Positions 5,860 through 50,538 of a stretch of 64,000 nt of DNA are shown piece by piece (position 1 is the stretch's first letter; each line of letters starts with the position of its first letter). The notes under the pieces are model-generated. The model was not told the origin of the DNA. It searched no databases and saw nothing but the letters and a program-made list of their open reading frames with translations. The DNA comes from a virus. Taxonomy: Duplodnaviria > Caudoviricetes. The stretch covers positions 192,001 through 256,000 of the IMG/VR virus record IMGVR_UViG_3300029288_005873; one strand, 5' to 3'. The position numbers were made by a program, and so were the translations under genes.

Positions 5860-5868
5860 CTCCTTTGG

Positions 5869-6096
5869 TTAGTTAGCCGCTGGCTTCAACTTTCCCTCTG
5901 CGATCTCAAGCACGACCGTGACCTTTCCCCCCGACTCCAAGTGGCGCACGGCCGAAAATCTCCCATTTCCGATCATGTGTACGATCACCCCAGGTTGTGG
6001 AATAGCCTTCCCGCGCCTGTCGAGCGAAAATAGACGCACGACATCTGGAGCTAGGAAGCTGACCTTGATTTCCGACACTCGCTGCTCATTAACCAT
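5869..6096 (-). CDS. hypothetical protein
   Basis: ORF from MVNEQR with AAGGAG RBS, downstream of tRNA-Arg. Confidence 0.55.
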   Translation of the reverse strand: MVNEQRVSEIKVSFLAPDVVRLFSLDRRGKAIPQPGVIVHMIGNGRFSAVRHLESGGKVTVVLEIAEGKLKPAAN

Positions 6097-28204: not shown

Positions 28205-28238
28205 AAAACGCCTTCAGGGTCTCTCCCGTCGGGCATCG

Positions 28239-28320
28239 AGCCGCTAGAGGGATTCGAACCCCCGATCTCTTTTGGAGGACGGATTACAAGTCCGTTGCCA
28301 TACCTCTTGGCGATAGCGGC
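28239..28320 (-). tRNA. tRNA-Thr(UGU) with long variable arm
   Basis: GCCGCTA/TAGCGGC, ACGGA-CTTGTAA-TCCGT, 15-nt variable region, GGGGG-TTCGAAT-CCCTC. Confidence 0.85.
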
Positions 28321-30915: not shown

Positions 30916-31043
30916 TGGTTGGGTCGCCAGGACTCGAACCTGGATCTTTCAGGCTTATGTGCCTGCCCGAGTTCACGGGATTCCAGCTCTAGCTGGTTAT
31001 GTTGCCATAGGCAACCTACAAGTCGCCATTACACCACGACCCA
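30916..31043 (-). ncRNA. 128-nt multi-armed tRNA-like RNA
   Basis: TGGGTCG/CGACCCA acceptor + ACCA, CCAGG-TTCGAGT-CCTGG T arm, four hairpins between D-like and T arms. Confidence 0.75.
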
Positions 31044-37767: not shown

Positions 37768-38184
37768 TTAGACCTTGGTCAGCTTGTACTTGATGCCGTC
37801 GATCTCGACCGTCTTCCCTTCACAGGTGGGCGGTTCCTGGAAGTTTTCCTCGTATTTCCAACCGTCCACTATGGGATCGTCTCCGTCCCAACCAACTTCC
37901 TTTTCCGATCCAAATACGGAGATGACCGCTTCGTATAACAGAATCAAGCCCTCATTCCTCAAGTTGTTGTTTTCGGCATAAATCTTATTGGCTTGGGCAA
38001 AGAGCCTATTGGCATGAGCATGTAGTTTGAGTGTCGAAGCTTTGACGGCTTTGTTTTTGGTGGCCTCGACATACATATGGTTTGCCGTAGCATAGAGCTT
38101 GTTGGCATCGTCGGCAGATTTCTTACATTCGGCGCGAATCTGACACAGCTTGTTGTAAGCCTCCTGAATCCTTTTGTTGTACAT
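37768..38184 (-). CDS. heptad-repeat protein (paralog of 13949..14526)
   Basis: ANxLYA repeats; C-terminus TCEGKTVEIDGIKYKLTKV. Confidence 0.7.
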   Translation of the reverse strand: MYNKRIQEAYNKLCQIRAECKKSADDANKLYATANHMYVEATKNKAVKASTLKLHAHANRLFAQANKIYAENNNLRNEGLILLYEAVISVFGSEKEVGWDGDDPIVDGWKYEENFQEPPTCEGKTVEIDGIKYKLTKV

Positions 38185-38195
38185 TCTCTACTCCT

Positions 38196-38687
38196 TTATG
38201 GTACTCGATTTGGATCATAACAACAGATAGTACCCCGTTGAATGGAAAAACCTTCACATGAGTCCTTCTGATAACAGCTTTCACAAGGAGATAGTGATAG
38301 GTTTCTCTTATCCTCTACCTCCCACCCGTTCAGTGCCGCCACAGCCTTCAGGATGTTGAGGAAACCAGTGATCCTATCTTTGTCCCAGTTCTTGTGGCTG
38401 AACCGAACGACCGTCCCGGTCGCGATCTCGTTTCCCATGCCATCGAAGAACGGAACGACGACACAGAACTCATTCCGCTCGATATACTCACGAGCTTCGT
38501 GATCCCATTTCTCGCTGTATACGTATTCCCCACACAGGAGAGACACGATGTGCCGAAAGATAGTGTGAGCTACGTCCATAAAACTCTGTCTTTCGCTCCC
38601 CGGACGCATGGATAACTCACAGATGGTCCCCGGCACATCATTATGAATGTGATACACACACACCTTGGAGATTTCGTTGATCTTCAT
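38196..38687 (-). CDS. hypothetical protein
   Basis: 163 aa ORF, AGGAGGGGAG RBS. Confidence 0.65.
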   Translation of the reverse strand: MKINEISKVCVYHIHNDVPGTICELSMRPGSERQSFMDVAHTIFRHIVSLLCGEYVYSEKWDHEAREYIERNEFCVVVPFFDGMGNEIATGTVVRFSHKNWDKDRITGFLNILKAVAALNGWEVEDKRNLSLSPCESCYQKDSCEGFSIQRGTICCYDPNRVP

Positions 38688-38699
38688 GTTCTCCCCTCC

Positions 38700-40205
38700 T
38701 TATGCTCTCGGCTGCTCCGTTGTGACCATGTAGCCGTCCTTGTCCACGATGCGTCTTCCAGACGCCGCCCCGATGGCGGAAGCCTCATCCTCCCACAGGC
38801 TCTCCACCCTTAGGTTGTCCGACACCACGGCGAAGAGACCCAGATGTAGGCGTCGGGAGTATGTCCTTCCGACCAGACCTCGGAAGTCCCCTCTCGCCGG
38901 AAGTCCTCCGATGGGACCGCAGGTCCCTTTCTCCAGAGCCGAAGGCTCCTTGATCTCTTCGGCAGGAGCCGAAGGCTCCTTGACCACGACCTCGTCCTTC
39001 ATGAAATTATCCCACGCTTTCGCCAGCTTCGCGGGCTCCCCTTCGGATACACCGAAGTTCAGCTTCAACTGCCGGAGAACCAACAGTTTCACGCAGCTTA
39101 GCTCCATGCCGGGGATGCTCAGGTTCCTGTACCCGGCACCCTTCTCCGGTTCCCCCTTGACTTTCTTTCCATCCACAAGAAGCGTGGGCTTGGGCTGTAG
39201 CTGAATCCTCACCTTCCTGCCGCCCTTCGGACGAGCAGACCCTCTCTCGACAGCCGACCGATGCTTCGTTCCAGCAACATCCCTGATCACGGATAGAACG
39301 GCGAATACATCATCGGGCGAGGCTCCGTCCACCTCGCAGTTACCGGCGTACACATAGTCGCCGTTGAAGTACTCGGTCAGCTGTACCCTCGTGTTCATTC
39401 CGCCTTCCTTGATAGGTGCGGAGCCGGCGCCTTGGCTGACCGCGGCGGCACTCCCATCTAGCTCGAGCTCACCAGACAGGGGGGATGCGCCGGGTTCCTT
39501 CGGCGCCGGCTCCGCATTCGGCTGCGAGGGCTCGGAGCCGGCGGCGGGCTTGGGCGGAGGAGGGTTGTTGATCGGAAAACCCCAGTCATCGTAGTTTGGT
39601 CGGAACGGAGGCTCGCCCGGTTTTCTCACCAGCGGAGGCGGAGCCTTCTCGTCCTCTTCATCCTCTGGGTCGAACTTGCGACCCGACCTCCACCCTGCTG
39701 CCATCTCCAGCCGGTCCAGCACCCCATCGGATGCCTCCAGAACCGACCTGGCTGCCCCCAGGTTTGCATCCGATACCGCCAGAAGCTCCCCAACATTCGC
39801 AACCGACAGGACCGCCTCCACGGACCTCACAGTAGCCTCGGGCGCCATGCGCCCGCCCCTCAGGTTCCACGGATCGGGCGTGTTGCGAACATCGATCGGG
39901 GCGGAGGCCTTGGGCATCCTGAACTCCCCAGAGTTCCCAGATGCCACACACACCTTCCCGTTCCCGCAGGACATCTCCACGTAGTCCTTGTATCCCCAGC
40001 AGGGAGCCGTAGCCGGCTCCCGGACTTTCCCCTGCGGAACCGTGAGGCTGCGGTCGGTCAACCACGCCTGCTCGTCAACCTCATCAGATAGGGCAGGACC
40101 GTAGGCATCCATGTCCCACCTCTCCGGTGCCTCGACATGGGCTCGGTCATGAAGCTCGTCGCGAACATCGTAGCCGGACACTACTTGGCGCATCTTTTTC
40201 TCCAT
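38700..40205 (-). CDS. large protein with Pro-rich linker
   Basis: 501 aa ORF with GC3-biased codons. Confidence 0.7.
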   Translation of the reverse strand: MEKKMRQVVSGYDVRDELHDRAHVEAPERWDMDAYGPALSDEVDEQAWLTDRSLTVPQGKVREPATAPCWGYKDYVEMSCGNGKVCVASGNSGEFRMPKASAPIDVRNTPDPWNLRGGRMAPEATVRSVEAVLSVANVGELLAVSDANLGAARSVLEASDGVLDRLEMAAGWRSGRKFDPEDEEDEKAPPPLVRKPGEPPFRPNYDDWGFPINNPPPPKPAAGSEPSQPNAEPAPKEPGASPLSGELELDGSAAAVSQGAGSAPIKEGGMNTRVQLTEYFNGDYVYAGNCEVDGASPDDVFAVLSVIRDVAGTKHRSAVERGSARPKGGRKVRIQLQPKPTLLVDGKKVKGEPEKGAGYRNLSIPGMELSCVKLLVLRQLKLNFGVSEGEPAKLAKAWDNFMKDEVVVKEPSAPAEEIKEPSALEKGTCGPIGGLPARGDFRGLVGRTYSRRLHLGLFAVVSDNLRVESLWEDEASAIGAASGRRIVDKDGYMVTTEQPRA

Positions 40206-40240
40206 GGGGTCCGAAGGACCCGAAAAGGTTGATCCCCCAG

Positions 40241-40888
40241 CTACCCCTGACGCTTCACTGTCGTCCTGCCCGGCTCCCTATCCAGAACCACAAGACCTCG
40301 CCTCATCGGCTCAGGCCTGGACTTGTCACCAGCTGAGAACTTCCATGCCTTGCCGTCTCGCGAACACGTCGGGTTACGACACTCGAAGCCATCCGCAGAC
40401 CTGCTGACCGACCACCTCTGACGGCAGTTCGGACACTTCGGCATCGTCTCAGACGGAGGTCCCGATACCATCACCATCTCTATCCCCCTATCCTCCTTGC
40501 CGCCCATGAAGTCCAGCACTCGATCAACATGCTTACACTCGTCTTCGGAACAAGGCGGTCCGCCCGGCTTCCTGCCATCACAGCACATCGAGGATACTAC
40601 CACACCATCCTTGTATGACAAGGACACGTAATGCATGATGGGAAACCACTTCACCCATCCGCACTCCCTCTTGTCCTCGCTACACCTTCCGTTTTTCAGG
40701 CATCCGTGGCACGTCGGATGCCAGTCAGAGACGCGGTATGCCCTGCTCCCCGTCCCAAGCCCGGCGGGAGCTTCGGGCTTAGGAGCCTTCGGCTCCTTGC
40801 CCATGATTCGGTCGATCGCCGCCCCTGTTTCCGCCAGCTTCGCCATCGTGGCAGCAAGTCTGGACCTCAGAACGTCAGATCGCCCCAT
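40241..40888 (-). CDS. multi-zinc-finger (SWIM-like plus ribbon) protein
   Basis: CHGC, CC..CKH, CPNC..C...C; start MGRSD after AAGGAGG. Confidence 0.6.
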   Translation of the reverse strand: MGRSDVLRSRLAATMAKLAETGAAIDRIMGKEPKAPKPEAPAGLGTGSRAYRVSDWHPTCHGCLKNGRCSEDKRECGWVKWFPIMHYVSLSYKDGVVVSSMCCDGRKPGGPPCSEDECKHVDRVLDFMGGKEDRGIEMVMVSGPPSETMPKCPNCRQRWSVSRSADGFECRNPTCSRDGKAWKFSAGDKSRPEPMRRGLVVLDREPGRTTVKRQG

Positions 40889-41096
40889 CGTTTCCTCCTT
40901 GGAATCTTCGGGCGTTGCCCTTGAAAACCTCAATACTCTGTGGGTCTCAAGGGCAGCCCCCGAAGGGCTGCTTAAATTCACTATCGTATTTTGGAGTCAC
41001 CGCTTAGTGCCAGGTCATACCATTCCTCTTCAGGTTAGGTTTTTCCTATTCGCACATGCGCTTCTCGCAGTTCTAGACGTGAATTTTTGAAGCTAC

Positions 41097-41364
41097 AACC
41101 TAGGGCCAGGTCATACTCTTTCCCTCGTTAGCAGGCTTTACAACTCATACCATATACACCTATATGGTACACACATACGCTTATATAAGTTTTAAACATG
41201 AATTTGGAGTTATAACCTAGGGCCAGGTCATACCTTTTCCCTCGTTAGCAGGCTTTACAACTCATACCATATACACCTATATGGTACACACATACGCTTA
41301 TATGTTTTAAACATGAATTTGGAGTTATAACCTAGGGCCAGGTCATACCTTTTCCCTCGTTAGC
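41097..41364. repeat. AT-rich tandem repeat, 115-117 bp unit x about 2.3
   Basis: AACCTAGGGCCAGGTCATAC at 41097, 41214 and 41329; internal TACCATATA/TATATGGTA palindrome. Confidence 0.92.
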
Positions 41365-41559
41365 GTGGATTTTGGGGTCTCTCCATTCGCCCATGCGCTT
41401 CTCGCAATCTTTGATGCTAAACAAAGACAAGAAACCACAGGTTACTTCGGGTGCTCTCGCCACGGCATTTGGTTTTTCCTTACGGGCATTAGTGCCCAAC
41501 TGCCTATGACTTCGATATACAAACTTCCCCTCGGGTCCTGCCTGCTGCCTCCCCCTCAG

Positions 41560-41655
41560 TGGCACCAAGTGGGTTTGAACCACCAGCCCTCTCTGTCCGA
41601 GAGTCGGATACTCGGGACCGGAGCCCCGGTTGCCCGCCCCTGTGGCGGTGGTGCC
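41560..41655 (-). ncRNA. 96-nt tRNA-like RNA downstream of rpsL
   Basis: GGCACCA/TGGTGCC acceptor + A, GGTGG-TTCAAAC-CCACT T arm, three or more internal hairpins, no 7-nt anticodon loop. Confidence 0.65.
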
Positions 41656-41715
41656 GAAACGGTGGGACCATAACCCTCGTTAAGCTATGGTCCCACCGTG
41701 CTGCTCAACACTTCC

Positions 41716-42120
41716 CTACTTCTTCGCCCGCTTCACCCCGTACTTGCTCCTGCTCTGGTTCCGGGGGTTCTTCTCACCACCGTTGCGGACCGTGTCTCCC
41801 GCAGCATCCGTCCCCTTGGCACCACGCACGATGTGATACTTCACACCGGGCAGGTCCTTCACCCTGCCGCCCCTGATCAGCACCGTCGAGTGCTCCTGCA
41901 GGTTGTGCCCGATTCCCGGGATGTACGCGATCACCGTGATCCCGTTCGACAGCCTCACCACCGCCACCTTGCGGTTCGCGGAGTTCGGCTTCTTCGGACC
42001 GACGGTGTACACCCTCAGGCACACACCCTTGCGCTGCGGACATCCCTGAAGCGCTGGCGCCTTGGATTTGTTCGCCAAACGCTTCCTACCTTGCCTCACC
42101 AGCTGGTTGATCGTCGGCAT
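41716..42120 (-). CDS. rpsL: 30S ribosomal protein S12 (uS12), phage-encoded
   Basis: [53 protein letters not shown]; GGAGG RBS. Confidence 0.97.
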
Positions 42121-42442
42121 CTCCGTCCTCCTCTTCCTGAAGCATTGCGTCGATTTCCTCGATTTCATCCTCCGAGACACCATTGTCCAGGAGGATTTTC
42201 CTCATTTCCTCGATACTACACTCCTCGAGCACGATCTCCCTGCGATCACCCTTCTTCGCAAGGATGTGGTCCAGCTCCTTCTCATGCTTCGCCGCCTCGT
42301 GCCGCAGACGGTTGACGCACGAAAGAAGCTTCTCGTTCTTCACGTGAGCCTTCTTCAGAAGATCCATCATCTCCTCGGCCATCGATGATACCGTTGATAC
42401 CGCATCCAGACGCTCCGTGACCGAACTCGAATTCGAACCCAT
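42086..42442 (-). CDS. coiled-coil acidic protein overlapping the rpsL start
   Basis: 118 aa ORF, AAGGAG RBS, directly after twister 1. Confidence 0.65.
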
Positions 42443-42481
42443 CGCTCATCTCCTTATCGGGCTGTAATCCTCACGTCCCTT

Positions 42482-42545
42482 TCCATCCCTCTGCGTTTTC
42501 ACGGGCTTGGGACCGTCGTCCCTTTGGGACGGCCGCATTGATGGA
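42482..42545 (-). ncRNA. twister ribozyme (type P1), copy 1
   Basis: UCCAU-CAA-UGCG-GC-CGUCCC/GGGACG-ACGG-UCCCAAGC-CCGU-GAAAA-CGCA-GAGGG-AUGGA. Confidence 0.9.
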
Positions 42546-42790
42546 GCCCGCCTAGCGCCTGGATGCGCATCGGCGGGCGGCACGGATATGTGCCTTGTGC
42601 GCTCCCCAATTGTATGATCCGCATGTCGGGGAATGTCTTCCTCTCGCTTAGCGGGGAAGCTCTGTCCCATGCGGACCGCCCCATGTAGACTGTCCGCTAG
42701 CTGGGGCGCAAATGCCAGCGGACCAAGTATGCTCAAATAGTGACGGGAATCTCATTCCCTCATCCCTTCTGATGCTGTAGCTATCAGCAC
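42546..42790 (-). ncRNA. candidate large pseudoknotted RNA ending at twister 1
   Basis: Intergenic; at least six stems and two loop-to-downstream complementarities (CGCCCCA/UGGGGCG, UCCCC/GGGGA). Confidence 0.5.
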
Positions 42791-42801
42791 CTATTTTTTC
42801 G

Positions 42802-43224
42802 TTAGTTCATCTTGGCGTCCATGGCGGCAACAACATCTGCCGCCATCTCCTCTACCGCCTTGTCGATCCCCATCTCATCGATCATCTCTTGGGCGCTGTC
42901 AGACAGACACATGACATTGACACCCTCCGGCACTAGGTCCAGGTCCTCCTCAGTGAAGAACCCAGCCTCGACCTTGGCGCGGTTCGGAGAGGCTAGGACC
43001 AAGTCCCTGTTGGGCATCTCCACCAGAATGCCGTCGTCCATCAGCTCCACAACCGCATACAGCATCTGTGACCGTCCGAGATCGTCCGAGCACATGTCGC
43101 AGAGCACCTCGAACGAGAAAGGCGCTTTCCTGCCCTCCACCAATCCGAACAGGAAAGCCTCCAGAACCTGGCTCCTCATTGTCTGATACCCGAATATCGC
43201 CTCTTCCGTCCTGTAAATCTTCAT
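42802..43224 (-). CDS. hypothetical protein (possible winged helix)
   Basis: 140 aa ORF, ATGA overlap. Confidence 0.6.
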   Translation of the reverse strand: MKIYRTEEAIFGYQTMRSQVLEAFLFGLVEGRKAPFSFEVLCDMCSDDLGRSQMLYAVVELMDDGILVEMPNRDLVLASPNRAKVEAGFFTEEDLDLVPEGVNVMCLSDSAQEMIDEMGIDKAVEEMAADVVAAMDAKMN

Positions 43225-43267
43225 GGTCGTCTCCCCTTGTATGATGAGGTGGACTCTCCCACGATCT

Positions 43268-43633
43268 CTAGCGCACTTTGAATCCAGCCTCCATGCATTT
43301 CCAGCGCGGAACTTCGGCTCCTACGGAGCCCATGAACCGTTCCGAGAGAAGCCGCGCTGAGAATTCGTCCCTCGTCATCGCGAACGCCAGAACCGCACAC
43401 CACCCCTCCTGCTTGGCCAGGTCCATCGTCAGCAGCTCCATGGGAATGCTCCTGGCGCTGGACAGGGAATTGTTGTCCGTGTCGCTGAGCTTCAGCAGCA
43501 TCTCCAGACCGCTGAGGACCTGTTCCATGTGCGATTCCATGGCATCATCGGTCACGTTATTGCTGACCCAAAGCCGGAGAGACACTACCAGTCCAGCTAT
43601 GAGATCCCTGTTTACCGGAACCATGACTTTCAT
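43268..43633 (-). CDS. hypothetical protein
   Basis: Start MKVMVP after AGGAGG. Confidence 0.6.
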   Translation of the reverse strand: MKVMVPVNRDLIAGLVVSLRLWVSNNVTDDAMESHMEQVLSGLEMLLKLSDTDNNSLSSARSIPMELLTMDLAKQEGWCAVLAFAMTRDEFSARLLSERFMGSVGAEVPRWKCMEAGFKVR

Positions 43634-43720
43634 GTCGTTCCTCCTAGGGTTGTACACCTTTCCAGGAAAATTTCTCCTGGACCGAAATGCCGATCTGAGT
43701 TTTGGGAAAAACGCTAAGGC

Positions 43721-43948
43721 TCAGAAGTCAGAGTGCTCCTTTGTGCGGTAGTTAACCACATCCTCCACAAACTCCTGAATGGAACCTACCCACACTTGGA
43801 TATACTCCGGCAGCCCGAAGGGACGAATTATGTTCTCTGGCTTTGTCCCCTCTGGCACCACACCCAACAGCTCGGGTGAACTGTATGAGCCGCCTATCCA
43901 GCAAACCACGAGCGGTTTCGGTTTGACACGTCTTACCTTGTCAGCCAT
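43721..43948 (-). CDS. hypothetical protein
   Basis: 75 aa ORF. Confidence 0.55.
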   Translation of the reverse strand: MADKVRRVKPKPLVVCWIGGSYSSPELLGVVPEGTKPENIIRPFGLPEYIQVWVGSIQEFVEDVVNYRTKEHSDF

Positions 43949-43986
43949 GGCTTTAACACCTTTTGGCTATTTTTCAGCCACGCATT

Positions 43987-44016
43987 AAAAGCCCCCCAGG
44001 AGGTATTCTGGGGGCT
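43987..44016 (-). terminator. intrinsic terminator
   Basis: GC-rich stem AGCCCCCAG../..CTGGGGGGCT followed by a T run on the minus strand. Confidence 0.75.
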
Positions 44017-44053
44017 CTATGGCTCCGGGTCCTGCGGACCCATCCATGCTTTT

Positions 44054-44260
44054 CTACGTCCCCGCCGTTTCCGCAGCCTCATTGAGGGCTCGGGAGATCC
44101 TTTTGCTGAGCTGGGTCGGGGTCATATTCTCCAAGGCTGCCTCCAGGAGGTTGCCTGCTGCTTCGAGGAGGGTTCGTGTTACGCGATCAAGTTCCAGCTC
44201 GGCGATTGTCCACGTCTCCGCCATCATGGTAGCGACGCTTTCCCTCTGCTCTTTGGTCAT
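44054..44260 (-). CDS. small helical protein
   Basis: 68 aa ORF, AAGGA RBS, directly after twister 2. Confidence 0.65.
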   Translation of the reverse strand: MTKEQRESVATMMAETWTIAELELDRVTRTLLEAAGNLLEAALENMTPTQLSKRISRALNEAAETAGT

Positions 44261-44284
44261 GGCGTTGTCCTTTCACCTACATTT

Positions 44285-44349
44285 CCCCACCCCTCCGCAT
44301 TTGCACGGGCTTGGGACCGTCGTCCCGAAGGGACGGCTGCGTTATGGGA
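44285..44349 (-). ncRNA. twister ribozyme (type P1), copy 2
   Basis: UCCCA-UAA-CGCA-GC-CGUCCC/GGGACG-ACGG-UCCCAAGC-CCGU-GCAAA-UGCG-GAGGGG-UGGGG. Confidence 0.92.
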
Positions 44350-44417
44350 GGGGCGCGAGGCGCCCCTTTATGTAGGACCTCCGGTCCTTGGTAGGGGAGT
44401 TGTAGAGCTTCTAGCTC

Positions 44418-44882
44418 TTAGTCGGTGGTGGGGCGCTCGGCGGGGCGGTCGTCGTCCCAGGTATCGGAGCCGATGGCGACGACGGAGCAGCTGAGCTGGA
44501 GGGCGAGACCGGCGACAGTGGCTTTGCCGTTGGCGTAGAAGCCGCACTTGCCGGAGGCGAAGATACGGGCGGTGGCGACGGTCTGGTCGATTTTGAGGGA
44601 CTTGAGGGTCTGGGGCTCGAGGGCGAGGAACTTCTGGATATCCTCGTCCTTGAGGCGTTTGGGGTCATCGGGCTTGGAGTGGGCGAGGGTGACGTTGAGG
44701 GAGACCTGGAAGGTCTTGGGCTCTCCGGCGACGTCGAGGGTGACCTTGCCGTTGTGGTTGAACCCCACCGAGCCGGTGGAGTTGGTGCGGGGCTCCATGG
44801 CACCGACGCCCAGCTGCTTGAGGCTGATGCTGCCCATGGTCAGGACGTCGCTCTTGAACCCCTCGGTCTGCTTCTTCGACAT
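44418..44882 (-). CDS. tandem FxTGSxG-domain protein between two twister ribozymes
   Basis: Paralog of 29477..29947; strongly C/G-ending codons; AAGGAG RBS. Confidence 0.75.
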   Translation of the reverse strand: MSKKQTEGFKSDVLTMGSISLKQLGVGAMEPRTNSTGSVGFNHNGKVTLDVAGEPKTFQVSLNVTLAHSKPDDPKRLKDEDIQKFLALEPQTLKSLKIDQTVATARIFASGKCGFYANGKATVAGLALQLSCSVVAIGSDTWDDDRPAERPTTD

Positions 44883-44923
44883 GGTACATTCTCCTTCGGG
44901 ACCTTTGGTCCCATGTTAGGGTT

Positions 44924-44988
44924 GCGCCCCTCTGCGTTCGTCCGGGCTTGGGACCGGCGCCTCACCATTGAGGCGGCCGCATTGGCGC
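44924..44988 (-). ncRNA. twister ribozyme (type P1), copy 3
   Basis: GCGC-CAA-UGCG-GC-CGCCUCA/UGAGGCG-CCGG-UCCCAAGC-CCGG-ACGAA-CGCA-GAGGG-GCGC. Confidence 0.9.
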
Positions 44989-45086
44989 TGGAGGGGTTGA
45001 GTATCAGAGCCCCCTCCGGGCTCCGGGGTTGGGCCAGGCTATGCGCCCCCTTCCAACCACTGGCGGCGTCCCGCCAGATGAGATGT

Positions 45087-45266
45087 CTATCGCGTGATTC
45101 CCATCAACTGCTCGGCCTTCCTCGTGTTCCTGGTCCTGTAGTGGAGGGGGCGGCATTTATTGATGTCCCCAGCAGCCCTCCTACGGCTTGGCGGACAGAT
45201 CTCCACCTCCACCGTTTGCCCATCAATCACCTCGATGCGGACATTCTTGGCTTTCATCGCCTTCAT
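45087..45266 (-). CDS. small basic protein (59 aa, below ORF-track cutoff)
   Basis: MKAMKAKNVRIEVIDGQTVEVEICPP..; first ORF after promoter-like motif copy 2. Confidence 0.5.
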   Translation of the reverse strand: MKAMKAKNVRIEVIDGQTVEVEICPPSRRRAAGDINKCRPLHYRTRNTRKAEQLMGITR

Positions 45267-45295
45267 CCTTGGCAGCGATTTTCCCTCGCGGGTTC

Positions 45296-45326
45296 AAAAC
45301 ATCCGCGGAAATTTTTCGCTGCAAAA
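45296..45326 (-). promoter_or_regulatory. conserved 31-bp promoter-like motif, copy 2
   Basis: TTTTGCAGCGAAAAATTTCCGCGGATGTTTT. Confidence 0.65.
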
Positions 45327-45396
45327 ATTTTTCATCCATCGCGCAGGATCTTACTGTTCCGGGAAACTCCTGTGGCAATTACCTCATTTGAGCCTC

Positions 45397-45915
45397 CTAG
45401 GGAAGGATGAGGACTTCACGAAACATAGACCATGTTCCTGGGGCATAGAACCTAATACAATGGTCTATGACGGGATCAATGCTGAATGGGTCCATAAGGA
45501 CCGGTTTTCCGTCATTGTTCAGCATGACCTGAAGGTCTTGTGGCTCCATGTCGTGGTCCAGGAGAGTTTTGGCTATGACCTTCATGTCACTCAGAATCGG
45601 CTCCCAACCTCCTATTGCGTTTAGCAGGGGCATGACGGCGGCAGCCGCATTCCATCCATAGAAGGCGTCCAGGATTTCGACGGTCGGCACGAAGGGGCGC
45701 ATCCTATCCAGGCAGTTGTGTTCCTTCTTCAGTTGGACTGCGTGCTCGGTCAGCGCGACCGCCCGGTCGCCACTGGCGTAGACCAGCTTGTACCCACCTT
45801 CGCCCAGCCAGCGGGAGAACGGGTGCGCTTCCACGATTCGGCGGACACCCGTATCCGTGATGAGCTGTGCTACCCATTCTGGGGCATCTGGGAGTAGGAC
45901 CTCTTGACGCACCAT
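45397..45915 (-). CDS. protein-kinase-like fold protein
   Basis: LGEGGYKLVY glycine loop, DLQVML, LMDP. Confidence 0.55.
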   Translation of the reverse strand: MVRQEVLLPDAPEWVAQLITDTGVRRIVEAHPFSRWLGEGGYKLVYASGDRAVALTEHAVQLKKEHNCLDRMRPFVPTVEILDAFYGWNAAAAVMPLLNAIGGWEPILSDMKVIAKTLLDHDMEPQDLQVMLNNDGKPVLMDPFSIDPVIDHCIRFYAPGTWSMFREVLILP

Positions 45916-45916
45916 G

Positions 45917-46180
45917 TTATTCCACCTGTTCTAGCTCTCCGATGGAGACGGAAAGTGTGTGGAAGTTAAAGTTGGACCTCAGGAAACCGGAAGCGTCCAT
46001 GACTCGTTCTCCGCGCTCCCAGGCAGCGATGGTGTTCCAGTTCCCGCAGACTGACTCGAACTTGACCTGAACCGGAACGAACGTGTTACCCGTATGGGCG
46101 ACGACCCGTCCCACCTTTGTACGTTTCCCATCGGTCGAACGCCAGATGACCATGGAGCCGATGGCAGGAAGGCTTGTCAT
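45917..46180 (-). CDS. hypothetical protein
   Basis: 87 aa ORF, ATGA overlap. Confidence 0.55.
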   Translation of the reverse strand: MTSLPAIGSMVIWRSTDGKRTKVGRVVAHTGNTFVPVQVKFESVCGNWNTIAAWERGERVMDASGFLRSNFNFHTLSVSIGELEQVE

Positions 46181-46473
46181 TCCTGCACGATGTGGGGTCC
46201 CTCGTGGTCCTTTGCCGTGCGCCAGCAGTAGGTGCGCCCTTCGAGGGTAATATACATTCCAAGCTCATCCTTGCCGGTGAAGGTGCCGTACTGGACGACT
46301 CGGTTCCAGACTGCCATGGATACTTTCTCCATGACCGGGAGGATGTGCTCGGCATTAATCTGCTTCACCTGAGGACGGACGCTTTCGGCAAAGAGAGCGT
46401 ACGCCAGGCTTTCGGCGTCTCCTTTGGTGGGCGCGTTCATTTCCATCTTGATGGTGACCAGGAAGCGTTTCAT
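46177..46473 (-). CDS. hypothetical protein
   Basis: Start re-assigned near MKRFL after AAAGGA. Confidence 0.55.
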   Translation of the reverse strand: MKRFLVTIKMEMNAPTKGDAESLAYALFAESVRPQVKQINAEHILPVMEKVSMAVWNRVVQYGTFTGKDELGMYITLEGRTYCWRTAKDHEGPHIVQE

Positions 46474-46661
46474 GATGGTCATTCCTTTCTGGTGTCCGTA
46501 GAACAGGAAAAACATACAGGAGCTGCCATAGTGCTCCAGCCGCAGCTTCCTGGAGATGTCGCATTTCCCCTCGATGCGAACTCCCATGCACGAGGTTTCC
46601 ATACCCATGTACTACCAGTGAGCACAGAAGTTACAGGTGTGTCTGTTGTCCATGGCTTCTC

Positions 46662-47000
46662 CTACGGCTGGACGGGTCCCTCGGCGAAATCCTGGCGCGC
46701 CTCCAGGTCGATCTGGCGGTACCGCGCCATCTTCTCCTCGTAGTTGGGCTGGCGAGGGAGGTACTGACCGGCGTCGCCGAAGTCCTCCAAAGGGCAGCAG
46801 GACTCCATGCAGCTGACATGGTCGAGAACGTTCAGGAAATACCAGGCAGCCTGGTCAGCGTCGTTCAGCATGGGGCGGAACCCGAGGTACGACGGAGCCG
46901 TCTCGGGGAGCTCGAACCGGCGAAAGAAGTAGCCGTCGAAGTTGCTCTTGTTCAGGACAGCCACGTATCTCCTGCTGGGGGACACCATGTTCTTGGTCAT
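46662..47000 (-). CDS. hypothetical protein
   Basis: 112 aa ORF, AAGGAG RBS. Confidence 0.6.
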   Translation of the reverse strand: MTKNMVSPSRRYVAVLNKSNFDGYFFRRFELPETAPSYLGFRPMLNDADQAAWYFLNVLDHVSCMESCCPLEDFGDAGQYLPRQPNYEEKMARYRQIDLEARQDFAEGPVQP

Positions 47001-47030
47001 TGGTTCTCTCCTTGAGGGACCTGCGGTCCC

Positions 47031-47702
47031 CTACTTGCGGTTGAACTCCTCGTAGTTCTTGAGCTGGGGGTCGTTGTCCTCGCCCCACCGCTGGTTCAGA
47101 CCCCGCTCCAGGAACAACTCCTCCTGGAGATGCGCCCATTCGATCGCCTTGGTGGCATTAGAGATGCTCGCTCTTACCAAGGCGGTACCGATTTCGTCAC
47201 TATCCCAGCACTCGTCGATGCTGGAACAGGAGCCGCGCCCCACCTTCGGGTCCAACCTGATGGCTTCCACCAGAGCGGGCATGTTGACCGCAGCTTTCCA
47301 GGCGGTCAGCGCCGCGCAGTCAACCGTCCGCTGCCACAGGCACTCATCGCACTTGGCGCACTTCGCGCAGGGGTGTACTACTTGCTTCACCTCGCGGGTC
47401 GCGAACCAACCCGCATCCGGGTTGTGGGTCTCCTTCCGGAACTCGGAGAGGTCGGCAGTGTAGCCACCAGAGCAGCGCAGGCACTGACTCCACCACGCGC
47501 CATTCTGCTGAACCTTCCAGCCACGGATGACGACCTGGTTCTTCAGGGTCGGATGAACCTCAGGAGCGCCACACGTCGGACACTCCATCGGCGTACCCTG
47601 AACGTGGAACCGCTCGGTCTGGCTTACACTGCCGCACATGCAGGGAAGCGCCCAGGAGGGACGCGCTACGCCCAGCAGACGACCGCACTTTGCGCACCGC
47701 AT
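47031..47702 (-). CDS. Cys-rich multi-zinc-finger protein
   Basis: Several CxxC pairs, AAGGAGG RBS. Confidence 0.65.
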   Translation of the reverse strand: MRCAKCGRLLGVARPSWALPCMCGSVSQTERFHVQGTPMECPTCGAPEVHPTLKNQVVIRGWKVQQNGAWWSQCLRCSGGYTADLSEFRKETHNPDAGWFATREVKQVVHPCAKCAKCDECLWQRTVDCAALTAWKAAVNMPALVEAIRLDPKVGRGSCSSIDECWDSDEIGTALVRASISNATKAIEWAHLQEELFLERGLNQRWGEDNDPQLKNYEEFNRK

Positions 47703-47968
47703 CAGAGGCCTCCTTGCTAGAAAGACACCGGCTTCCTGTCGAGTACGACCATCTCGTGAATCCTGGCCGAGTCGATACCCGACTCCTTCGCAGCCAGGAC
47801 CAACGTCCTGCTGTACATCTCGCTGTCGCCGTCACGCAGATAACGGCGAAGCAGGTTGATGTACAACACCGTGGCGTACGCTTTTCCGGGCTCCATGAGA
47901 ACCCTCCCGAGTTGTTGCGACCCCCCCTATGAAACCTGGGTCTTTGTTGGGATTTTCGATCGGTTTTG

Positions 47969-48229
47969 CTAGCGCACCCTCGTCTTGGCGGCGAGGATGG
48001 CCGCGATCGCAGCGCGGCGCAAAGGTCGCGAGCGACCCGCAGCCTGAAGCGCCTCCATGAGCGGCGCCGCCTTGGGAAGCGCCAGGTGAAGACGCGACCG
48101 AGCGGTCAGCAGATCACGGTCAAACTCACCCGCAATCATGCGGTACACCATGGTGTCCTTGAGACCCGCACGCTCGAGGCGGTTGATGAACCTGTACGCC
48201 TGCGTCCTGAAAGGGCACGTCACTCTCAT
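47969..48229 (-). CDS. small basic protein
   Basis: 86 aa ORF, AAGGAGG RBS. Confidence 0.6.
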   Translation of the reverse strand: MRVTCPFRTQAYRFINRLERAGLKDTMVYRMIAGEFDRDLLTARSRLHLALPKAAPLMEALQAAGRSRPLRRAAIAAILAAKTRVR

Positions 48230-48308
48230 GTCTCGACCTCCTTGGGTTGGGTAAGCACCTGAACGATTTCAGGCACTTACCGAGCCTAAAGCTCGGTCGA
48301 TTAGGACG

Positions 48309-48695
48309 CTAAGCGTCCTTGTCCGCATCCAGCAGGTCGCGCTGAATGCTGTCCACCTCAGCTAGCACTTCCGCCAGCCGCTGCTCCAACTTGACCAACT
48401 GGAGACCACGCTTCAGGGGCGTCATGTCCTCGTCCGCCTTCACACGTTCCAGTCTCGCATGAAGCACGCGGGCTGTCGCCATCAGCGAAGTCACTCGCCT
48501 CTCAGGCGTTAAATTCCCCGCCTTGAGGTCATCCGTGTTCTCCACGCCACGCCCTACCGCCCTACCACCCACTAGCTCCTCCAGCCGCTCGGCGCTCTGG
48601 TTCTTGATGTTGCTCGCCCTCGTCGCAGAGCGCCCGCCCCTCGGGCGGATTTGCTGCTGCTCCACGTACCCGAACACCACCTTGACGTCAGCCAT
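48309..48695 (-). CDS. coiled-coil protein
   Basis: 128 aa ORF, AAGGAGGAG RBS. Confidence 0.65.
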   Translation of the reverse strand: MADVKVVFGYVEQQQIRPRGGRSATRASNIKNQSAERLEELVGGRAVGRGVENTDDLKAGNLTPERRVTSLMATARVLHARLERVKADEDMTPLKRGLQLVKLEQRLAEVLAEVDSIQRDLLDADKDA

Positions 48696-49374
48696 CGATC
48701 TCCTCCTTGGCGAAAGCCGCTCGGCACGCCTCCCGCCTCGCCATCATGACGCGCCGCGCCTCCTTGGCAGCCCGGCGCTCCGCCCTGGCGTTGCGATCGG
48801 CGTACCCATTCGGATCGGTACGCCGCCACTTCTCCCCCATCTCCGCCGCTCGAGCCGCCTTGCGCTCCTTGCGGTTCTGCTGAGCCTTGTGGCTCATACC
48901 CGCTTGGTCCAAGATCTCGCCGCAGCAGAACCCGTAGCCGTACCACTGCTCGCTGCTCGTCGCCCTTAGCGCCAGTGCGACTGGGGTGATGATGGCGCGG
49001 GACGGTATGGAAGGCGGGTACACTATGTCAGCCGGAGTCTTGATATATCGTTCCGGCACTACGGGCTGTATCATCTCCAACCAATCAGAGCGGAACACCA
49101 TCTGGTCCGCTATGGCTGTGATGGCATAGCCTTCGCGCGAACCATTACCTACGCGCGTGGGCGCTCCCATCTCGCGTGCCTGTTTGGCCAGACGCCCATC
49201 CACGCTGCCCTCCCACTTCGCGACAAACTTGCGTCCCAGGCCCGCTACCCAGCGCGCCACCCTTCCTAGCGCCTGGGTCTCGTTCTCCGCCTCCACCATC
49301 CCTACCACCTTGGTGGGGAACCGAAGGGCATGGCAAAGCAGGATTGCCTGGTTCAGGATGACATACCGTAGCAT
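48688..49374 (-). CDS. hypothetical protein with basic C-terminal helix
   Basis: Start MLRYVIL; first gene after promoter-like motif copy 3. Confidence 0.6.
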   Translation of the reverse strand: MLRYVILNQAILLCHALRFPTKVVGMVEAENETQALGRVARWVAGLGRKFVAKWEGSVDGRLAKQAREMGAPTRVGNGSREGYAITAIADQMVFRSDWLEMIQPVVPERYIKTPADIVYPPSIPSRAIITPVALALRATSSEQWYGYGFCCGEILDQAGMSHKAQQNRKERKAARAAEMGEKWRRTDPNGYADRNARAERRAAKEARRVMMARREACRAAFAKEEIDG

Positions 49375-49425
49375 CTCGCTCCCCTTTCCGCTGCCTTGCC
49401 TCAAGGCGCAAGGCTGGCAAGGTTC

Positions 49426-49456
49426 AAAACATCCGCGGAATTTTTCCGCTGCAAAA
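49426..49456 (-). promoter_or_regulatory. conserved 31-bp promoter-like motif, copy 3
   Basis: TTTTGCAGCGGAAAAATTCCGCGGATGTTTT. Confidence 0.65.
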
Positions 49457-49463
49457 AAATTTT

Positions 49464-49479
49464 TGGCAAGATTTTTGCT
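49464..49479 (+). promoter_or_regulatory. sigma54-type -24/-12 site
   Basis: TGGCAAG-ATTT-TTGCT (GG-N10-GC). Confidence 0.4.
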
Positions 49480-49599
49480 AAGCCGAAAGCGCTACGTGCC
49501 GGGACCTGCGGTCCCTAGTACCACGGATTGTAGCAAGTCGGACTCCGGGGATAACAATACACCGACTTGTACCAAATGCTAACAACGTAGCTATGGCTA

Positions 49600-49668
49600 T
49601 GACATTTTTGTCATTGCCCTATGACATGCACGCCACTGCGCGCGAGCTCGGCTATGACTGCGGCGTCA
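49600..49668. promoter_or_regulatory. three phased TGAC-N6-GTCA operator-like palindromes
   Basis: Start at 49600, 49622 (one mismatch) and 49655, each preceded by CTA. Confidence 0.55.
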
Positions 49669-49690
49669 CAGCTCCCCCGTCTCCTATAAA

Positions 49691-49740
49691 AAGGTGGGGG
49701 ATAGTGGAAAAGAGTGGAGAAAAGTGGAACACAGTGGGAA
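49691..49740 (+). promoter_or_regulatory. five GTGG boxes at 10-bp period (MraZ-box-like array)
   Basis: GTGG at 49694, 49704, 49714, 49724 and 49734. Confidence 0.6.
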
Positions 49741-49953
49741 GAACATAGTAAAACGTACTAAAAGACAGGGTTAGTGTACAAAATATAAGTACATAAAAAC
49801 ACCAATGTTTTAGCATAGTTACGCTATTAAAAATAGCTCTAAAAAAAACTCAATGATTCCCAGGTCTTCCTTGAACGTTTAGGGATAGTTGGAAAAGGAT
49901 TCTTGTACGGAGTAATGGGGTATTTTATGGGTAGGTTTTACAAAAATGAAAAA

Positions 49954-50538
49954 CTAAGGTTTTCCAATTGTATCAAAGATTGCTTTAAGCAGAAGGGTAT
50001 TACTGGCTATATGGACTATGCCATCGGAGAGTTCATAGCGGAGCATTCCTTGAGGATCAGCATAAACGGAGATATCCACGAAGGGGAGATTTCTTTGAGC
50101 ACATCCTTGGGAAAGAATGTGATTAGCGAGGATTGTATAGGCGGCACGTTCTTGGTCAGAACCTGCTACGGGGAATTCATCACGGTCAATGCGCAATTTT
50201 GGGGCAGGTGGAACTATGCCAAGGATTGCTGGTTTAGGGGTAAGTTGAGATGCCTTATCCAAATACAGGTCAATCCACTCTTGAAGGAGGGGTTGAGGTT
50301 GTCTTCCTCTATTTTTCACATGGACATCGACCCAACAACGCATGTCTATTTCGCCAAAGCAAAGAAGGAGGGAATCCTCCGGGGCGAATTGTATAGAGGC
50401 GACGGAATCAAGGAGTAGTGTTTCATTAGGGTGTCCTATACGTTTAAGGGTAACTGGACCGAGCCAATGAGTGGTAAAACCTGGAGTTTTTTCAAAGGGG
50501 ATGAAGCAGTGGGAGTCGCCCATTGTATGAATTGTCAT
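49954..50538 (-). CDS. SGNH-hydrolase-like protein
   Basis: GDSH, FGEID.R, SDG.VH. Confidence 0.75.
   Translation of the reverse strand: MTIHTMGDSHCFIPFEKTPGFTTHWLGPVTLKRIGHPNETLLLDSVASIQFAPEDSLLLCFGEIDMRCWVDVHVKNRGRQPQPLLQEWIDLYLDKASQLTPKPAILGIVPPAPKLRIDRDEFPVAGSDQERAAYTILANHILSQGCAQRNLPFVDISVYADPQGMLRYELSDGIVHIASNTLLLKAIFDTIGKP

What the first reader, a model, noticed from the sequence alone, without database searches (positions are those of the whole stretch)
41560..41655. Second multi-arm tRNA mimic, 60 nt downstream of rpsL
Seen: GGCACCA/UGGUGCC acceptor and a T arm (UUCAAAC loop) enclose CCGCC/GGCGG, ACCGG-GGCU-CCGGU and a segment with alternative pairings (CCGAG/CUCGG or CUCUC/GAGAG). 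There is no U8, canonical anticodon loop or encoded CCA. Inference: it keeps only what RNase P and RNase Z read, so it may be a mascRNA-like mRNA end-processing signal.
Basis: partly seen in the sequence, partly recalled or inferred. Interest (0 to 1): 0.7.

Follow-up and report, generated by a model that had tools for sequence, protein, structure and literature searches.

The report
Conserved non-decoding tRNA-shaped RNA in phage
A 96-base RNA gene in a 442-kb phage keeps a tRNA's outer shape but has a closed hairpin where the anticodon loop should be. A distant relative keeps it, so it looks like a selected tRNA look-alike that probably serves as a cutting signal in a long transcript; its position next to the ribosomal protein S12 gene is a recent accident.

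Summary
On the minus strand (41655 to 41560) a perfect 7-bp acceptor stem and a canonical T arm enclose three hairpins. There is no U8 and no encoded CCA, and the element starts 60 nt after the rpsL stop codon.

ARAGORN calls it tRNA-Arg(CCG). That cloverleaf is 16 kcal/mol worse than the best fold. The Rfam tRNA model gives 12 bits against a threshold of 29.

A true orthologue exists in a distant relative (L023) at 82% identity, with the match ending exactly at the element's two ends. All 29 pairs of the five-helix fold are kept. Two pairs changed on both sides and one changed from G-U to G-C. The middle arm stays closed under a variable 4-nt cap, so the RNA does not decode.

Four other relatives carry a different 108-111-nt tRNA look-alike at the same spot. 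None of these five relatives has rpsL next to its look-alike. In this phage an S12 cassette was inserted between a twister ribozyme and an element that was already there.

Best reading: the RNA is cut out by RNase P and RNase Z as punctuation in a ribozyme-punctuated transcript, and here that also trims the S12 message. The released RNA may have a job of its own. Processing is inferred, not shown. This scan has noted sealed-anticodon tRNA mimics in other phages, on unrelated sequences.

The parts
41560..41655 (-). The 96-nt tRNA-shaped RNA, from 5' G at 41655 to discriminator A at 41560.
   Evidence: Fold. ARAGORN. 82.5% identical to L023:5835-5931, with the match ending at both acceptor ends. 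All 29 pairs are kept.
41649..41655 (-). Acceptor stem, 5' strand (GGCACCA). Pairs with 41561-41567.
   Evidence: 7 of 7 Watson-Crick pairs. Pair 7-66 is A-U here and G-C in L023.
41634..41648 (-). Arm H1 in the D-arm position, starting directly after the acceptor stem. CCGC/GCGG is kept in both phages, and the loop holds a conserved GGG.
   Evidence: The sequence is identical in L023 apart from one inserted A.
41610..41630 (-). Arm H2 in the anticodon-arm position: 8 bp with one bulged A, closed by a 4-nt cap (UCCG here, CUCG in L023).
   Evidence: Pair probabilities are 0.67-1.0. G-U becomes G-C in L023 and the cap varies. The ARAGORN 7-nt loop version has two non-pairs in both phages.
41589..41603 (-). 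Arm H3 in the variable-arm position: CUCUC-GGACA-GAGAG.
   Evidence: U-A becomes C-G in L023 and the GGACA loop is conserved.
41568..41584 (-). T arm GGUGG-UUCAAAC-CCACU.
   Evidence: The stem is identical in L023. The loop there is CUCAACU, so U55, C56, A57 and A58 are kept.
41561..41567 (-). Acceptor stem, 3' strand (UGGUGCC). Followed by A73 and no CCA.
41660..41698 (-). Strong hairpin (15-18 bp), then UUUC, then the RNA. Proposed protective 3' end of the S12 message after an RNase P cut.
   Evidence: -32.1 kcal/mol, the strongest 70-nt upstream fold among 31 tRNA, tRNA-like and tmRNA genes of the genome. Not scored as an intrinsic terminator. L023 also has a GC hairpin 4 nt upstream of its copy.
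41716..42120 (-). rpsL (uS12), 134 aa.
   Evidence: PF00164.
42086..42442 (-). 118-aa gene that travels with rpsL. Together they form the inserted cassette.
   Evidence: 69% DNA identity to L008:2683-3398 across this gene and rpsL, ending at the rpsL stop. Protein match.
42483..42544 (-). Twister-P1 ribozyme ('twister 1'), the upstream boundary of the S12 message.
   Evidence: 65.1 bits, E = 1.5e-13, against a gathering score of 67.2. Matches the twisters at L012:4467-4554, L013:4765-4836 and L023:5524-5586.

Best explanation
This is a discrete, selected, non-decoding tRNA-shaped RNA gene. Its acceptor stem, T arm and an elbow-capable loop are intact.

It lies inside a long minus-strand transcript that is already cut into pieces by twister ribozymes. 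The proposed mechanism is as follows. Host RNase P cuts at 41655|41656. RNase Z or 3' exonucleases trim after A73 at 41560. A CCA-adding enzyme, of a type the phage itself encodes, completes the 3' end.

This would release a roughly 96-99-nt stable RNA and would define the ends of the flanking messages at the same time. In this phage the upstream product would be a two-gene message (118-aa gene plus rpsL). It would start at the twister and end in a strong hairpin plus UUUC.

The link to rpsL is secondary, because the S12 cassette was inserted between the twister and an element that was already there.

Shown: the structure, its conservation, its lack of a decoding loop, and the synteny. Inferred: the cleavages, the CCA addition, and any role of the released RNA.
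For: 1. tRNA-like outer shell.
- 7-bp acceptor, 5-bp T stem and a 7-nt loop that fits GGTTCRANYCC.
- A 7-bp acceptor stem is a major RNase P determinant, and tRNA-like domains are cut by M1 RNA (PMC4201824).

2. Not a decoder.
- Rfam tRNA model: 12.4 bits on the element alone, 26 bits only by borrowing a 5' end from the upstream hairpin, against a threshold of 29.
- The ARAGORN cloverleaf scores -31.2 kcal/mol against -47.6 for the best fold.
- U8, A14 and A21 are absent.
- ARAGORN finds nothing in the orthologue even at a relaxed threshold. Its would-be loop has C33.

3. Selection.
- L023:5835-5932 is 82% identical, against 67-71% for the flanking genes, and the match stops exactly at both ends.
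- Of 16 substitutions only 5 fall in the 58 paired columns, and all 5 keep pairing: two pairs changed on both sides and one G-U to G-C.
- The chance that 16 random substitutions keep all 29 pairs is about 1.5e-5.
- Two 1-nt indels rule out a coding constraint.

4. Punctuation context.
- Three twister-P1 ribozymes lie upstream.
- Twisters are kept in L008, L012, L013 and L021-L024.
- In L012 and L013 a different tRNA look-alike starts 4-6 nt after the matching twister.
- Many ordinary tRNAs of this phage sit 10-25 nt before a ribosome-binding site and start codon.
- Both type-1 copies have a GC hairpin 4 nt upstream.

5. The phage encodes a CCA-adding-type nucleotidyltransferase.

6. rpsL is secondary.
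Against: - No transcript-end or expression data.
- Only two distinct sequences of this type exist. L020 is 100% identical to the window. The structure tested was derived from one of the two.
- Positions 8-33 are identical apart from one inserted base, and the H3 loop is conserved. That is more than RNase P or RNase Z would need, so a sequence-specific partner is likely and processing may be only the route by which the RNA is made.
- The base just before the proposed cut is C, not the U that bacterial RNase P prefers.
- L024 has the twister directly before the downstream gene and no look-alike, so the element is dispensable for that gene.
- In this phage about 580 nt of repeats follow the RNA, so it does not shape a nearby downstream 5' end here.
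Confidence: 0.55

Rival explanations
1. The main function is in trans. The released, CCA-tailed RNA would be a tRNA look-alike that binds a protein which normally handles tRNA. Candidates are a host defence nuclease, a modification enzyme, an elongation factor or the ribosome, or a phage protein such as the Cys-rich 246-aa product downstream. The cuts would only be how the RNA is made.
For: - Positions 8-33 are identical to L023 apart from one inserted base. The GGACA loop, the GCA junction and the bulged A are conserved, while the flanks do not align at all.
- A look-alike precedes the 246-aa homologue in all six loci that have one.
- Five of six look-alikes encode CC after the discriminator.
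- The genome holds at least five other expanded tRNA-like RNAs.
Against: - No partner has been identified.
- The 246-aa protein has no family hit and only a low-confidence model.
- L024 and L019 carry the gene without a look-alike.
- In L023 another gene, and here about 580 nt of repeats, separate the RNA from that gene.
- The two look-alike types are not alignable with each other. That fits a requirement for shape only.
Confidence: 0.3
2. It is a working tRNA-Arg(CCG) that completes the phage's set of arginine tRNAs.
For: - ARAGORN calls Arg(CCG) with a CU-CCG-GU loop.
- The genome has ACG, CCU and UCU arginine tRNAs but no other CCG.
- The discriminator is a purine in both copies.
- The same register in L023 reads UCG, which is also an arginine anticodon.
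Against: - Rfam gives 12.4 bits against a threshold of 29.
- The anticodon stem has two non-pairs in both copies and costs 16 kcal/mol against the closed form.
- U8, A14, A21 and A20 are absent.
- L023 has C33, and ARAGORN does not call it.
- The sequence holds five CCG triplets, so finding one in a loop means little.
- CGG is the rarest arginine codon in the genome, at 6%.
Confidence: 0.05
3. It is a dedicated 3'-end signal that evolved for the S12 message.
For: A hairpin, then 4 nt, then the tRNA shape follow directly after rpsL.
Against: - The same RNA in L023 has no rpsL upstream in the 5.8 kb of that locus that were read, and the L012, L013, L021 and L022 look-alikes have none either.
- The closest S12 genes (L008, L009, L010, L002) are followed directly by other genes or a terminator-like hairpin, with no look-alike.
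Confidence: 0.05
4. It is a decaying tRNA pseudogene, a recombination scar or an integration-site remnant with no function.
For: - It sits at a rearrangement junction, and both flanks differ between relatives.
- The type-2 look-alikes share their last 25 nt with a bacterial tRNA-Leu(UAA), whose 3' halves occur as attachment-site-like duplicates.
Against: - Every helix is perfect, and all 29 pairs are kept at 82% identity with compensating changes.
- The 5' acceptor strand is present and co-varies.
- There is no repeat of its 3' half anywhere in the genome.
- No bacterial tRNA has this 3' end.
Confidence: 0.03

Closest known systems
Plant mitochondrial t-elements (PMC1920247)
   Same: They are non-canonical tRNA-like structures that keep the GGTTCRANYCC T-arm motif. 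They sit beside protein genes, and their ends coincide with message 5' or 3' ends made by RNase P and RNase Z. This is the closest functional analogue of the proposed punctuation role. The T arm here fits that motif.
   Different: They belong to organelles, not to a phage. Their processing has been mapped by experiment, and here it has not. The inner arms of this RNA are conserved with compensating changes, which has not been reported as a requirement for t-elements.
mascRNA at the 3' end of MALAT1 (Rfam RF01684). The mechanism is cited from my own knowledge of Wilusz et al. 2008.
   Same: A tRNA-like RNA downstream of a protective 3' structure. RNase P cleavage makes the mature upstream 3' end, and RNase Z plus CCA addition finish the small RNA.
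   Different: mascRNA is a 61-nt vertebrate nuclear RNA with a cloverleaf. No Rfam match was found here, even at E = 10. This RNA has five helices and a closed middle arm. The upstream protector here is a plain hairpin, not a triple helix.
Class II tRNAs, including this phage's own 83-nt tRNA-Thr(UGU) with a variable-arm stem
   Same: The layout is acceptor, D-like arm, middle arm, variable-arm hairpin and T arm. The best alignment among the phage's tRNAs is to tRNA-Thr (z = 4.8), with a shared CGCCA...GG...GGCAAC D-arm region.
   Different: There is no 7-nt anticodon loop, no U8, A14 or A21, and no linker between the acceptor stem and H1. It fails the Rfam tRNA model.
YrlA-type bacterial and phage Y RNAs (PMC4201824)
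   Same: They are non-decoding RNAs with a tRNA-like domain. One with a 7-bp acceptor stem is cut by RNase P and receives a CCA tail. They occur in phages.
   Different: In YrlA the RNA's own ends form the Ro60-binding stem and the tRNA-like part is internal. Here the ends form the acceptor stem. No Rfam match was found. I did not check whether a Ro60 gene lies nearby.
The type-2 look-alike at the same position in L012, L013, L021 and L022 (alignment A4, model R2)
   Same: It occupies the same position, after the twister block and before the 246-aa homologue. It also has three inner arms, the first starting with CC directly after the acceptor stem and the middle one closed by a stable tetraloop. 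A 4-nt linker precedes the T arm.
   Different: It is 108-111 nt long with a long first arm and GNRA caps. The sequences do not align with this RNA. Model R2 gives this RNA 13 bits, less than it gives some ordinary tRNAs. Model R3 misses the type-2 RNAs.

Membership tests
Canonical tRNA (Rfam RF00005) | Covariance-model score at or above the 29-bit gathering threshold. | tested here: not met
   12.4 bits on the element alone. 26 bits only with a 65-nt insert and a 5' end borrowed from the upstream hairpin.
Canonical tRNA (Rfam RF00005) | A 7-nt anticodon loop with U33, closed by a 5-bp stem. | tested here: not met
   The stem has two non-pairs in both copies. The closed 4-nt-cap form is 16 kcal/mol better. 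L023 has C33 and is not called by ARAGORN.
Canonical tRNA (Rfam RF00005) | The conserved core bases U8, A14 and A21. | tested here: not met
   C8 and C9 are followed directly by H1. There is no A14 or A21 in either register.
Canonical tRNA (Rfam RF00005) | A 7-bp acceptor stem stacked on a 5-bp T stem with a 7-nt T loop. | tested here: met
   Kept in L023, with pair 7-66 changed on both sides.
RNase P / RNase Z processing signals (t-elements, mascRNA) | The ends of the tRNA-like structure coincide with mapped RNA ends. | not testable with these tools
RNase P / RNase Z processing signals (t-elements, mascRNA) | The T-arm motif GGTTCRANYCC within a non-canonical cloverleaf beside a protein gene. 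| tested here: met
   GGTTCAAACCC lies at 41572-41582 on the minus strand, and the RNA starts 60 nt after rpsL. The L023 copy departs from the motif at one base.
mascRNA-menRNA (RF01684), YrlA, viral tRNA-like structures, tmRNA and tRNA-Sec in Rfam | A match to the family's covariance model. | tested here: not met
   None is listed even at E = 10 on the element and its flanks.
Type-2 look-alike family of the relatives (model R2) | A significant match to the family model beyond general tRNA likeness. | tested here: inconclusive
   13.1 bits, the best hit within 1.8 kb, aligned on the acceptor stem, the base of the first arm and the T arm only. Ordinary tRNAs of the genome score 15-25 bits.

The most novel reading that the evidence does not exclude
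Huge phages of this lineage would use a two-part RNA-processing grammar: self-cleaving twisters plus host-cleaved, non-decoding tRNA look-alikes. The grammar would cut long transcripts into messages with protected ends. The released, CCA-tailed look-alike would also be a selected trans-acting RNA that occupies a tRNA-handling protein of the host or phage. Its conserved 5' half and GGACA loop would be the binding surface.
Probability: 0.3. Interest if true: 0.8.

Novelty: new variant of a known kind. Interest (0 to 1): 0.55.

Why it matters
tRNA-shaped RNAs that do not decode are known from mammals (mascRNA), plant mitochondria (t-elements), RNA viruses and bacterial Y RNAs. I found no paper describing a phage RNA with a closed anticodon arm.

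Here such an RNA is kept under selection in phages whose neighbouring proteins are only 50-55% identical. It sits in a transcript punctuated by twister ribozymes.

If the cuts occur, this would be a bacterial-virus counterpart of tRNA punctuation. It would show how a huge phage could make a defined S12 message protected at both ends. If the released RNA acts in trans, it would be a new kind of phage tRNA mimic.

It also warns annotators: the 'tRNA-Arg(CCG)' that ARAGORN reports here is almost certainly not a decoder.

Tried and rejected
Searches that found nothing:
- Exact or degenerate DNA patterns from the element in IMG/VR, JGI metagenomes and GTDB genomes found no further copy.
- The looser pattern gave 1 viral and 53 bacterial hits. 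None carries the element by model R3; the best is 29 bits and partial.
- GenBank phages gave no match for this RNA or for the type-2 RNA.
- Models R1, R2 and R3 found no second copy in this genome or in the relatives' records G001, G002 and G004.
- The neighbouring 246-aa, 118-aa and 154-aa proteins have no relatives in IMG/VR.
- Sequencing runs could not be searched, so there is no expression or end data.
- Relatives cannot be drawn for a virus record.

Readings rejected:
- A tRNA with an extra hairpin and a second anticodon arm (CCGAG/CUCGG closing AU-CCG-AC). That stem gets an A-C mismatch and the loop is not kept in L023.
- The Rfam alignment that uses GGGACCAUAGCUUAA from the upstream hairpin as the 5' end. 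It implies a 3-nt anticodon loop and a 65-nt D-loop insert.
- An island boundary or attachment site. There is no repeat of the 3' half in the genome, and the element lies inside the GC-rich stretch, not at its edge.
- Codon demand for CGG. It is the rarest arginine codon.

Other negatives:
- The phage has no RNase P RNA of its own.
- The 246-aa protein gave no Pfam hit and only weak zinc-ribbon/SWIM-like leads.

Full report
**Where it is.** The window is bases 192001-256000 of a 441,904-bp virus record, a huge phage. Nearly all genes run on the minus strand: 306 of 334 long ORFs. The finding lies on the minus strand from 41655 (5') to 41560 (3'), and 60 nt separate it from the stop codon of rpsL (41716-42120).

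**The observation.**
- A perfect 7-bp acceptor stem, GGCACCA/UGGUGCC, with discriminator A and trailer CUG, so no CCA.
- A T arm, GGUGG-UUCAAAC-CCACU.
- C8 in place of U8.

The outer shell is not chance. A scan of the genome for a T arm followed by a 7-bp acceptor stem finds 19 sites, against 0-1 in five shuffled genomes. All 19 are tRNAs or tRNA-like elements on the minus strand.

The inner arms taken alone are not significant. The 64 internal bases fold with z = -1.37, and 19 of 200 shuffles fold as well. Their reality rests on the comparison below.

**Is it a tRNA?** ARAGORN calls a 97-nt tRNA-Arg(CCG). Several tests speak against a decoder.
- The Rfam tRNA model gives 12.4 bits on the element alone. 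It reaches 26 bits only through an odd alignment that takes its 5' end from the upstream hairpin. The threshold is 29.
- The ARAGORN cloverleaf has two mismatches in the anticodon stem. It scores -31.2 kcal/mol, against -47.6 for the best fold.
- In the best fold that region is an 8-bp helix with one bulged A and a 4-nt cap (C-UCCG-G).
- U8, A14 and A21 are absent. So is A20, which I recall as an arginine identity base in E. coli.
- The sequence contains five CCG triplets, so a CCG in a loop carries little weight.
- The other tRNAs of the phage that were drawn are ordinary, with U8.

**Relatives at the rpsL gene.** The closest S12 proteins in a 5.8-billion-protein collection are 83% and 82% identical. 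In their contigs (L008, L009, L010), and in the IMG/VR relative L002, rpsL is followed directly by another gene or by a terminator-like hairpin. None has a tRNA-like element there. On that evidence alone the element would look lineage-specific.

**Relatives at the other side.** Searching through the downstream 246-aa gene and the upstream 154-aa gene gave six informative contigs.
- L020 is 100% identical to the window over 3,670 bp, the element included. The same phage therefore occurs in a second sample.
- L012, L013, L021 and L022 share the backbone. The 154-aa gene region is 68-78% identical in DNA, the twisters align, and the 246-aa homologue follows. In the stretch between the 154-aa gene and that homologue each carries a 108-111-nt tRNA-shaped RNA of a different sequence, here called type 2. 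It has acceptor GCCAGGG/CCCUGGC and three inner arms. The first arm holds a UUCG-capped tip, and the middle arm has a GNRA cap.
- Across the four type-2 sequences, 97.7% of cells pair and three pairs change on both sides.
- In L012 and L013 the type-2 RNA begins 4-6 nt after the twister that matches twister 1 of this window.
- Its last 25 nt are identical to a bacterial tRNA-Leu(UAA).

**The orthologue.** L023 is a 129-kb contig whose 154-aa and 246-aa homologues are 55% and 50% identical in protein. It carries a true orthologue of the element at 5835-5932. It lies about 250 nt after the matching twister, and a ribosome-binding site and start codon follow within about 15 nt.

blastn aligns window 41655-41561 to L023:5835-5931 at 82.5% identity (E = 8e-20). 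The match starts and stops at the two ends of the acceptor stem. The flanking sequence does not align, and the neighbouring genes are 67-71% identical.

Of 16 substitutions only 5 fall in the 58 paired columns, and all 5 keep pairing:

| Helix | This phage | L023 |
|---|---|---|
| Acceptor pair 7-66 | A-U | G-C |
| H3 stem | CUCUC/GAGAG | CUCCC/GGGAG |
| One H2 pair | G-U | G-C |

All 29 pairs of the five-helix fold are standard pairs in both sequences. In simulation, 16 random substitutions keep all 29 pairs with probability about 1.5e-5. Five substitutions confined to paired columns do so with probability about 8e-4. Two single-base indels exclude a protein-coding constraint.

The competing pairings fare worse. 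ACCGG/CCGGU and CCGAG/CUCGG each lose a pair in L023. The ARAGORN anticodon stem has two non-pairs in both sequences. The H2 cap varies (UCCG, CUCG), and as a 7-nt loop the L023 version would have C33. ARAGORN finds nothing in L023 even at a relaxed threshold.

The following are conserved: positions 8-33 apart from one inserted A, the GGG in the H1 loop, the GCA junction, the bulged A, the GGACA loop of H3, and U55, C56, A57 and A58 of the T loop.

**How rpsL came to be next to it.** In L012 and L013 the order is twister 1, then the look-alike, then the 246-aa homologue. In L023 it is twister, 250 nt, look-alike, one extra gene, then the homologue. In L008 the order is twister, a 109-aa gene, rpsL, then further genes. 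That stretch is 69% identical in DNA to window 42417-41723 and the match ends at the rpsL stop.

This phage therefore has an L012/L023-type backbone into which a cassette was inserted between twister 1 and the look-alike. The cassette is the 118-aa gene, rpsL and a hairpin, and it probably entered by recombination at the twister. The gene that follows rpsL in L008 lies 41 kb away in this phage, at window 164-451. Both immediate flanks of the RNA differ between relatives while the RNA itself is kept.

**Mechanism.**

*Shown:* a discrete, conserved, tRNA-shaped RNA without a decoding loop, embedded in a transcript that carries three twister-P1 ribozymes. These score 59.5-65 bits and E values from 6e-12 down to 1.5e-13, just under the gathering score.

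*Inferred:*
- The intact 12-bp acceptor/T stack and the elbow bases make it a substrate for RNase P at its 5' end. A 7-bp acceptor stem is a major determinant, and a tRNA-like domain of a Y RNA is cut by M1 RNA (PMC4201824).
- CCA-less precursors are trimmed by RNase Z or exonucleases at the 3' end. This step rests on general knowledge.
- The phage encodes a CCA-adding-type nucleotidyltransferase and no RNase P RNA.
- No sigma-70-like promoter or intrinsic terminator separates rpsL from the RNA.
- The 39-nt hairpin at 41660-41698 gives the strongest upstream fold among 31 tRNA, tRNA-like and tmRNA genes of the genome. L023 also has a GC hairpin 4 nt before its copy.
- Cutting at 41655|41656 would thus leave a two-gene S12 message that begins at the twister and ends in a hairpin plus UUUC.
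- Many ordinary tRNAs of this phage sit 10-25 nt before a ribosome-binding site and start codon. tRNA punctuation therefore looks like a general habit of this genome.

The closest documented analogues are plant mitochondrial t-elements (PMC1920247) and mascRNA (from my own knowledge).

**What this does not explain.** RNase P and RNase Z do not need H2, H3 or a fixed 5' half, yet these are maintained. That points to a further, sequence-specific role for the released RNA, for which I have no direct evidence. The 246-aa protein that follows the look-alike in all six loci has no family and only weak zinc-ribbon leads. It also occurs without a look-alike in L024 and L019. Types 1 and 2 share position and architecture but cannot be aligned. 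This could mean replacement or rapid divergence under a shape-only constraint.

**Verdict.**

| Claim | Probability |
|---|---|
| Real and selected RNA | about 0.9 |
| Non-decoding | about 0.85 |
| Excised by the tRNA-processing enzymes and so acting as punctuation | about 0.55-0.7 |
| Purpose-built for rpsL | about 0.05 |

Earlier notes of this scan describe sealed-anticodon tRNA mimics in other phages, on unrelated sequences. I did not test those. I found no description of such phage RNAs in the searched literature.

Noticed in passing
window 41000-41410 (minus strand): The roughly 580-nt gap between the RNA and the 246-aa gene holds a 117-nt tandem repeat (2.4 copies, 95% match). It also holds four copies of the 17-nt motif TATGACCTGGCMCTARG and two copies of a 21-nt motif, GCGAGAAGCGCATG[G/T]GCGAAT. 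On the gene strand both motifs occur only here in the genome; one two-mismatch match to the first lies on the opposite strand at G000:95832. Relatives lack the repeat region. No Rfam match, and the fold is not significant (z = -1.7). Function unknown.
   Followed up: partly
window 42483-42544, 44287-44348, 44924-44988 (minus); L008:2465-2527; L012, L013, L021-L024: Twister-P1 ribozymes, mostly just under the Rfam gathering score, sit before small genes throughout this block. Their positions are conserved across all relatives examined, so this is a ribozyme-punctuated operon shared by a group of uncultured huge phages.
   Followed up: partly
L012:4559-4669, L013:4842-4952, L021:5380-5488, L022:6594-6704: A second family of 108-111-nt tRNA-shaped RNAs. 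The middle arm is GNRA-capped and the long first arm carries a UUCG-capped tip. Three pairs change on both sides. ARAGORN finds none of them, and Rfam listed no tRNA at them in the scans run (E up to 0.01 or 0.001). The last 25 nt equal a bacterial tRNA-Leu(UAA).
   Followed up: partly
L014, L016, L017 versus L015, L018 (JGI metagenome contigs): Partial 3' halves of that bacterial tRNA-Leu(UAA) occur as duplicates. L016 and L018 lie on one 296-kb contig. This looks like attachment-site repeats of an element integrated in the tRNA gene.
   Followed up: no
G000:55582-55668 (minus), outside the window: An 87-nt tRNA-like RNA directly after tRNA-Gly(GCC). It has C8 C9 like the element studied here, a variable arm and a CCUGAAA loop. 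Neither ARAGORN nor the Rfam tRNA search at E = 1 calls it.
   Followed up: no
G000:80177-80299, 80439-80574, 81265-81400; window 30916-31043: Four further expanded tRNA-like RNAs of 123-136 nt, each with an intact acceptor stem and T arm. None resembles the element in sequence (z at most 1.5 in pairwise alignment).
   Followed up: partly
window 28238-28320 (minus): tRNA-Thr(UGU) of 83 nt with a short stem in the variable region, which is unusual for threonine. It is the phage tRNA most similar to the element, mainly in the D-arm region. A perfect 14-bp hairpin abuts its 5' end.
   Followed up: no
window 164-451 (minus) versus L008:3411-3734: The gene that directly follows rpsL in the closest relatives has its homologue (64% identity) 41 kb downstream in this phage. 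The whole tRNA and tmRNA island (window 4.7-41.6 kb) lies between them.
   Followed up: partly
G000:172595-172969 (minus): A phage-encoded CCA-adding/poly(A)-polymerase-family nucleotidyltransferase (PF01743, 105 bits, 462-aa ORF). No bacterial class A RNase P RNA (RF00010) was found in the genome.
   Followed up: partly
window 38000-50000: A stretch with 56-60% GC in a genome that is 42-52% GC elsewhere in the window. It holds the twister block, rpsL and the element. CGG makes up 18% of arginine codons there against 6% elsewhere.
   Followed up: no
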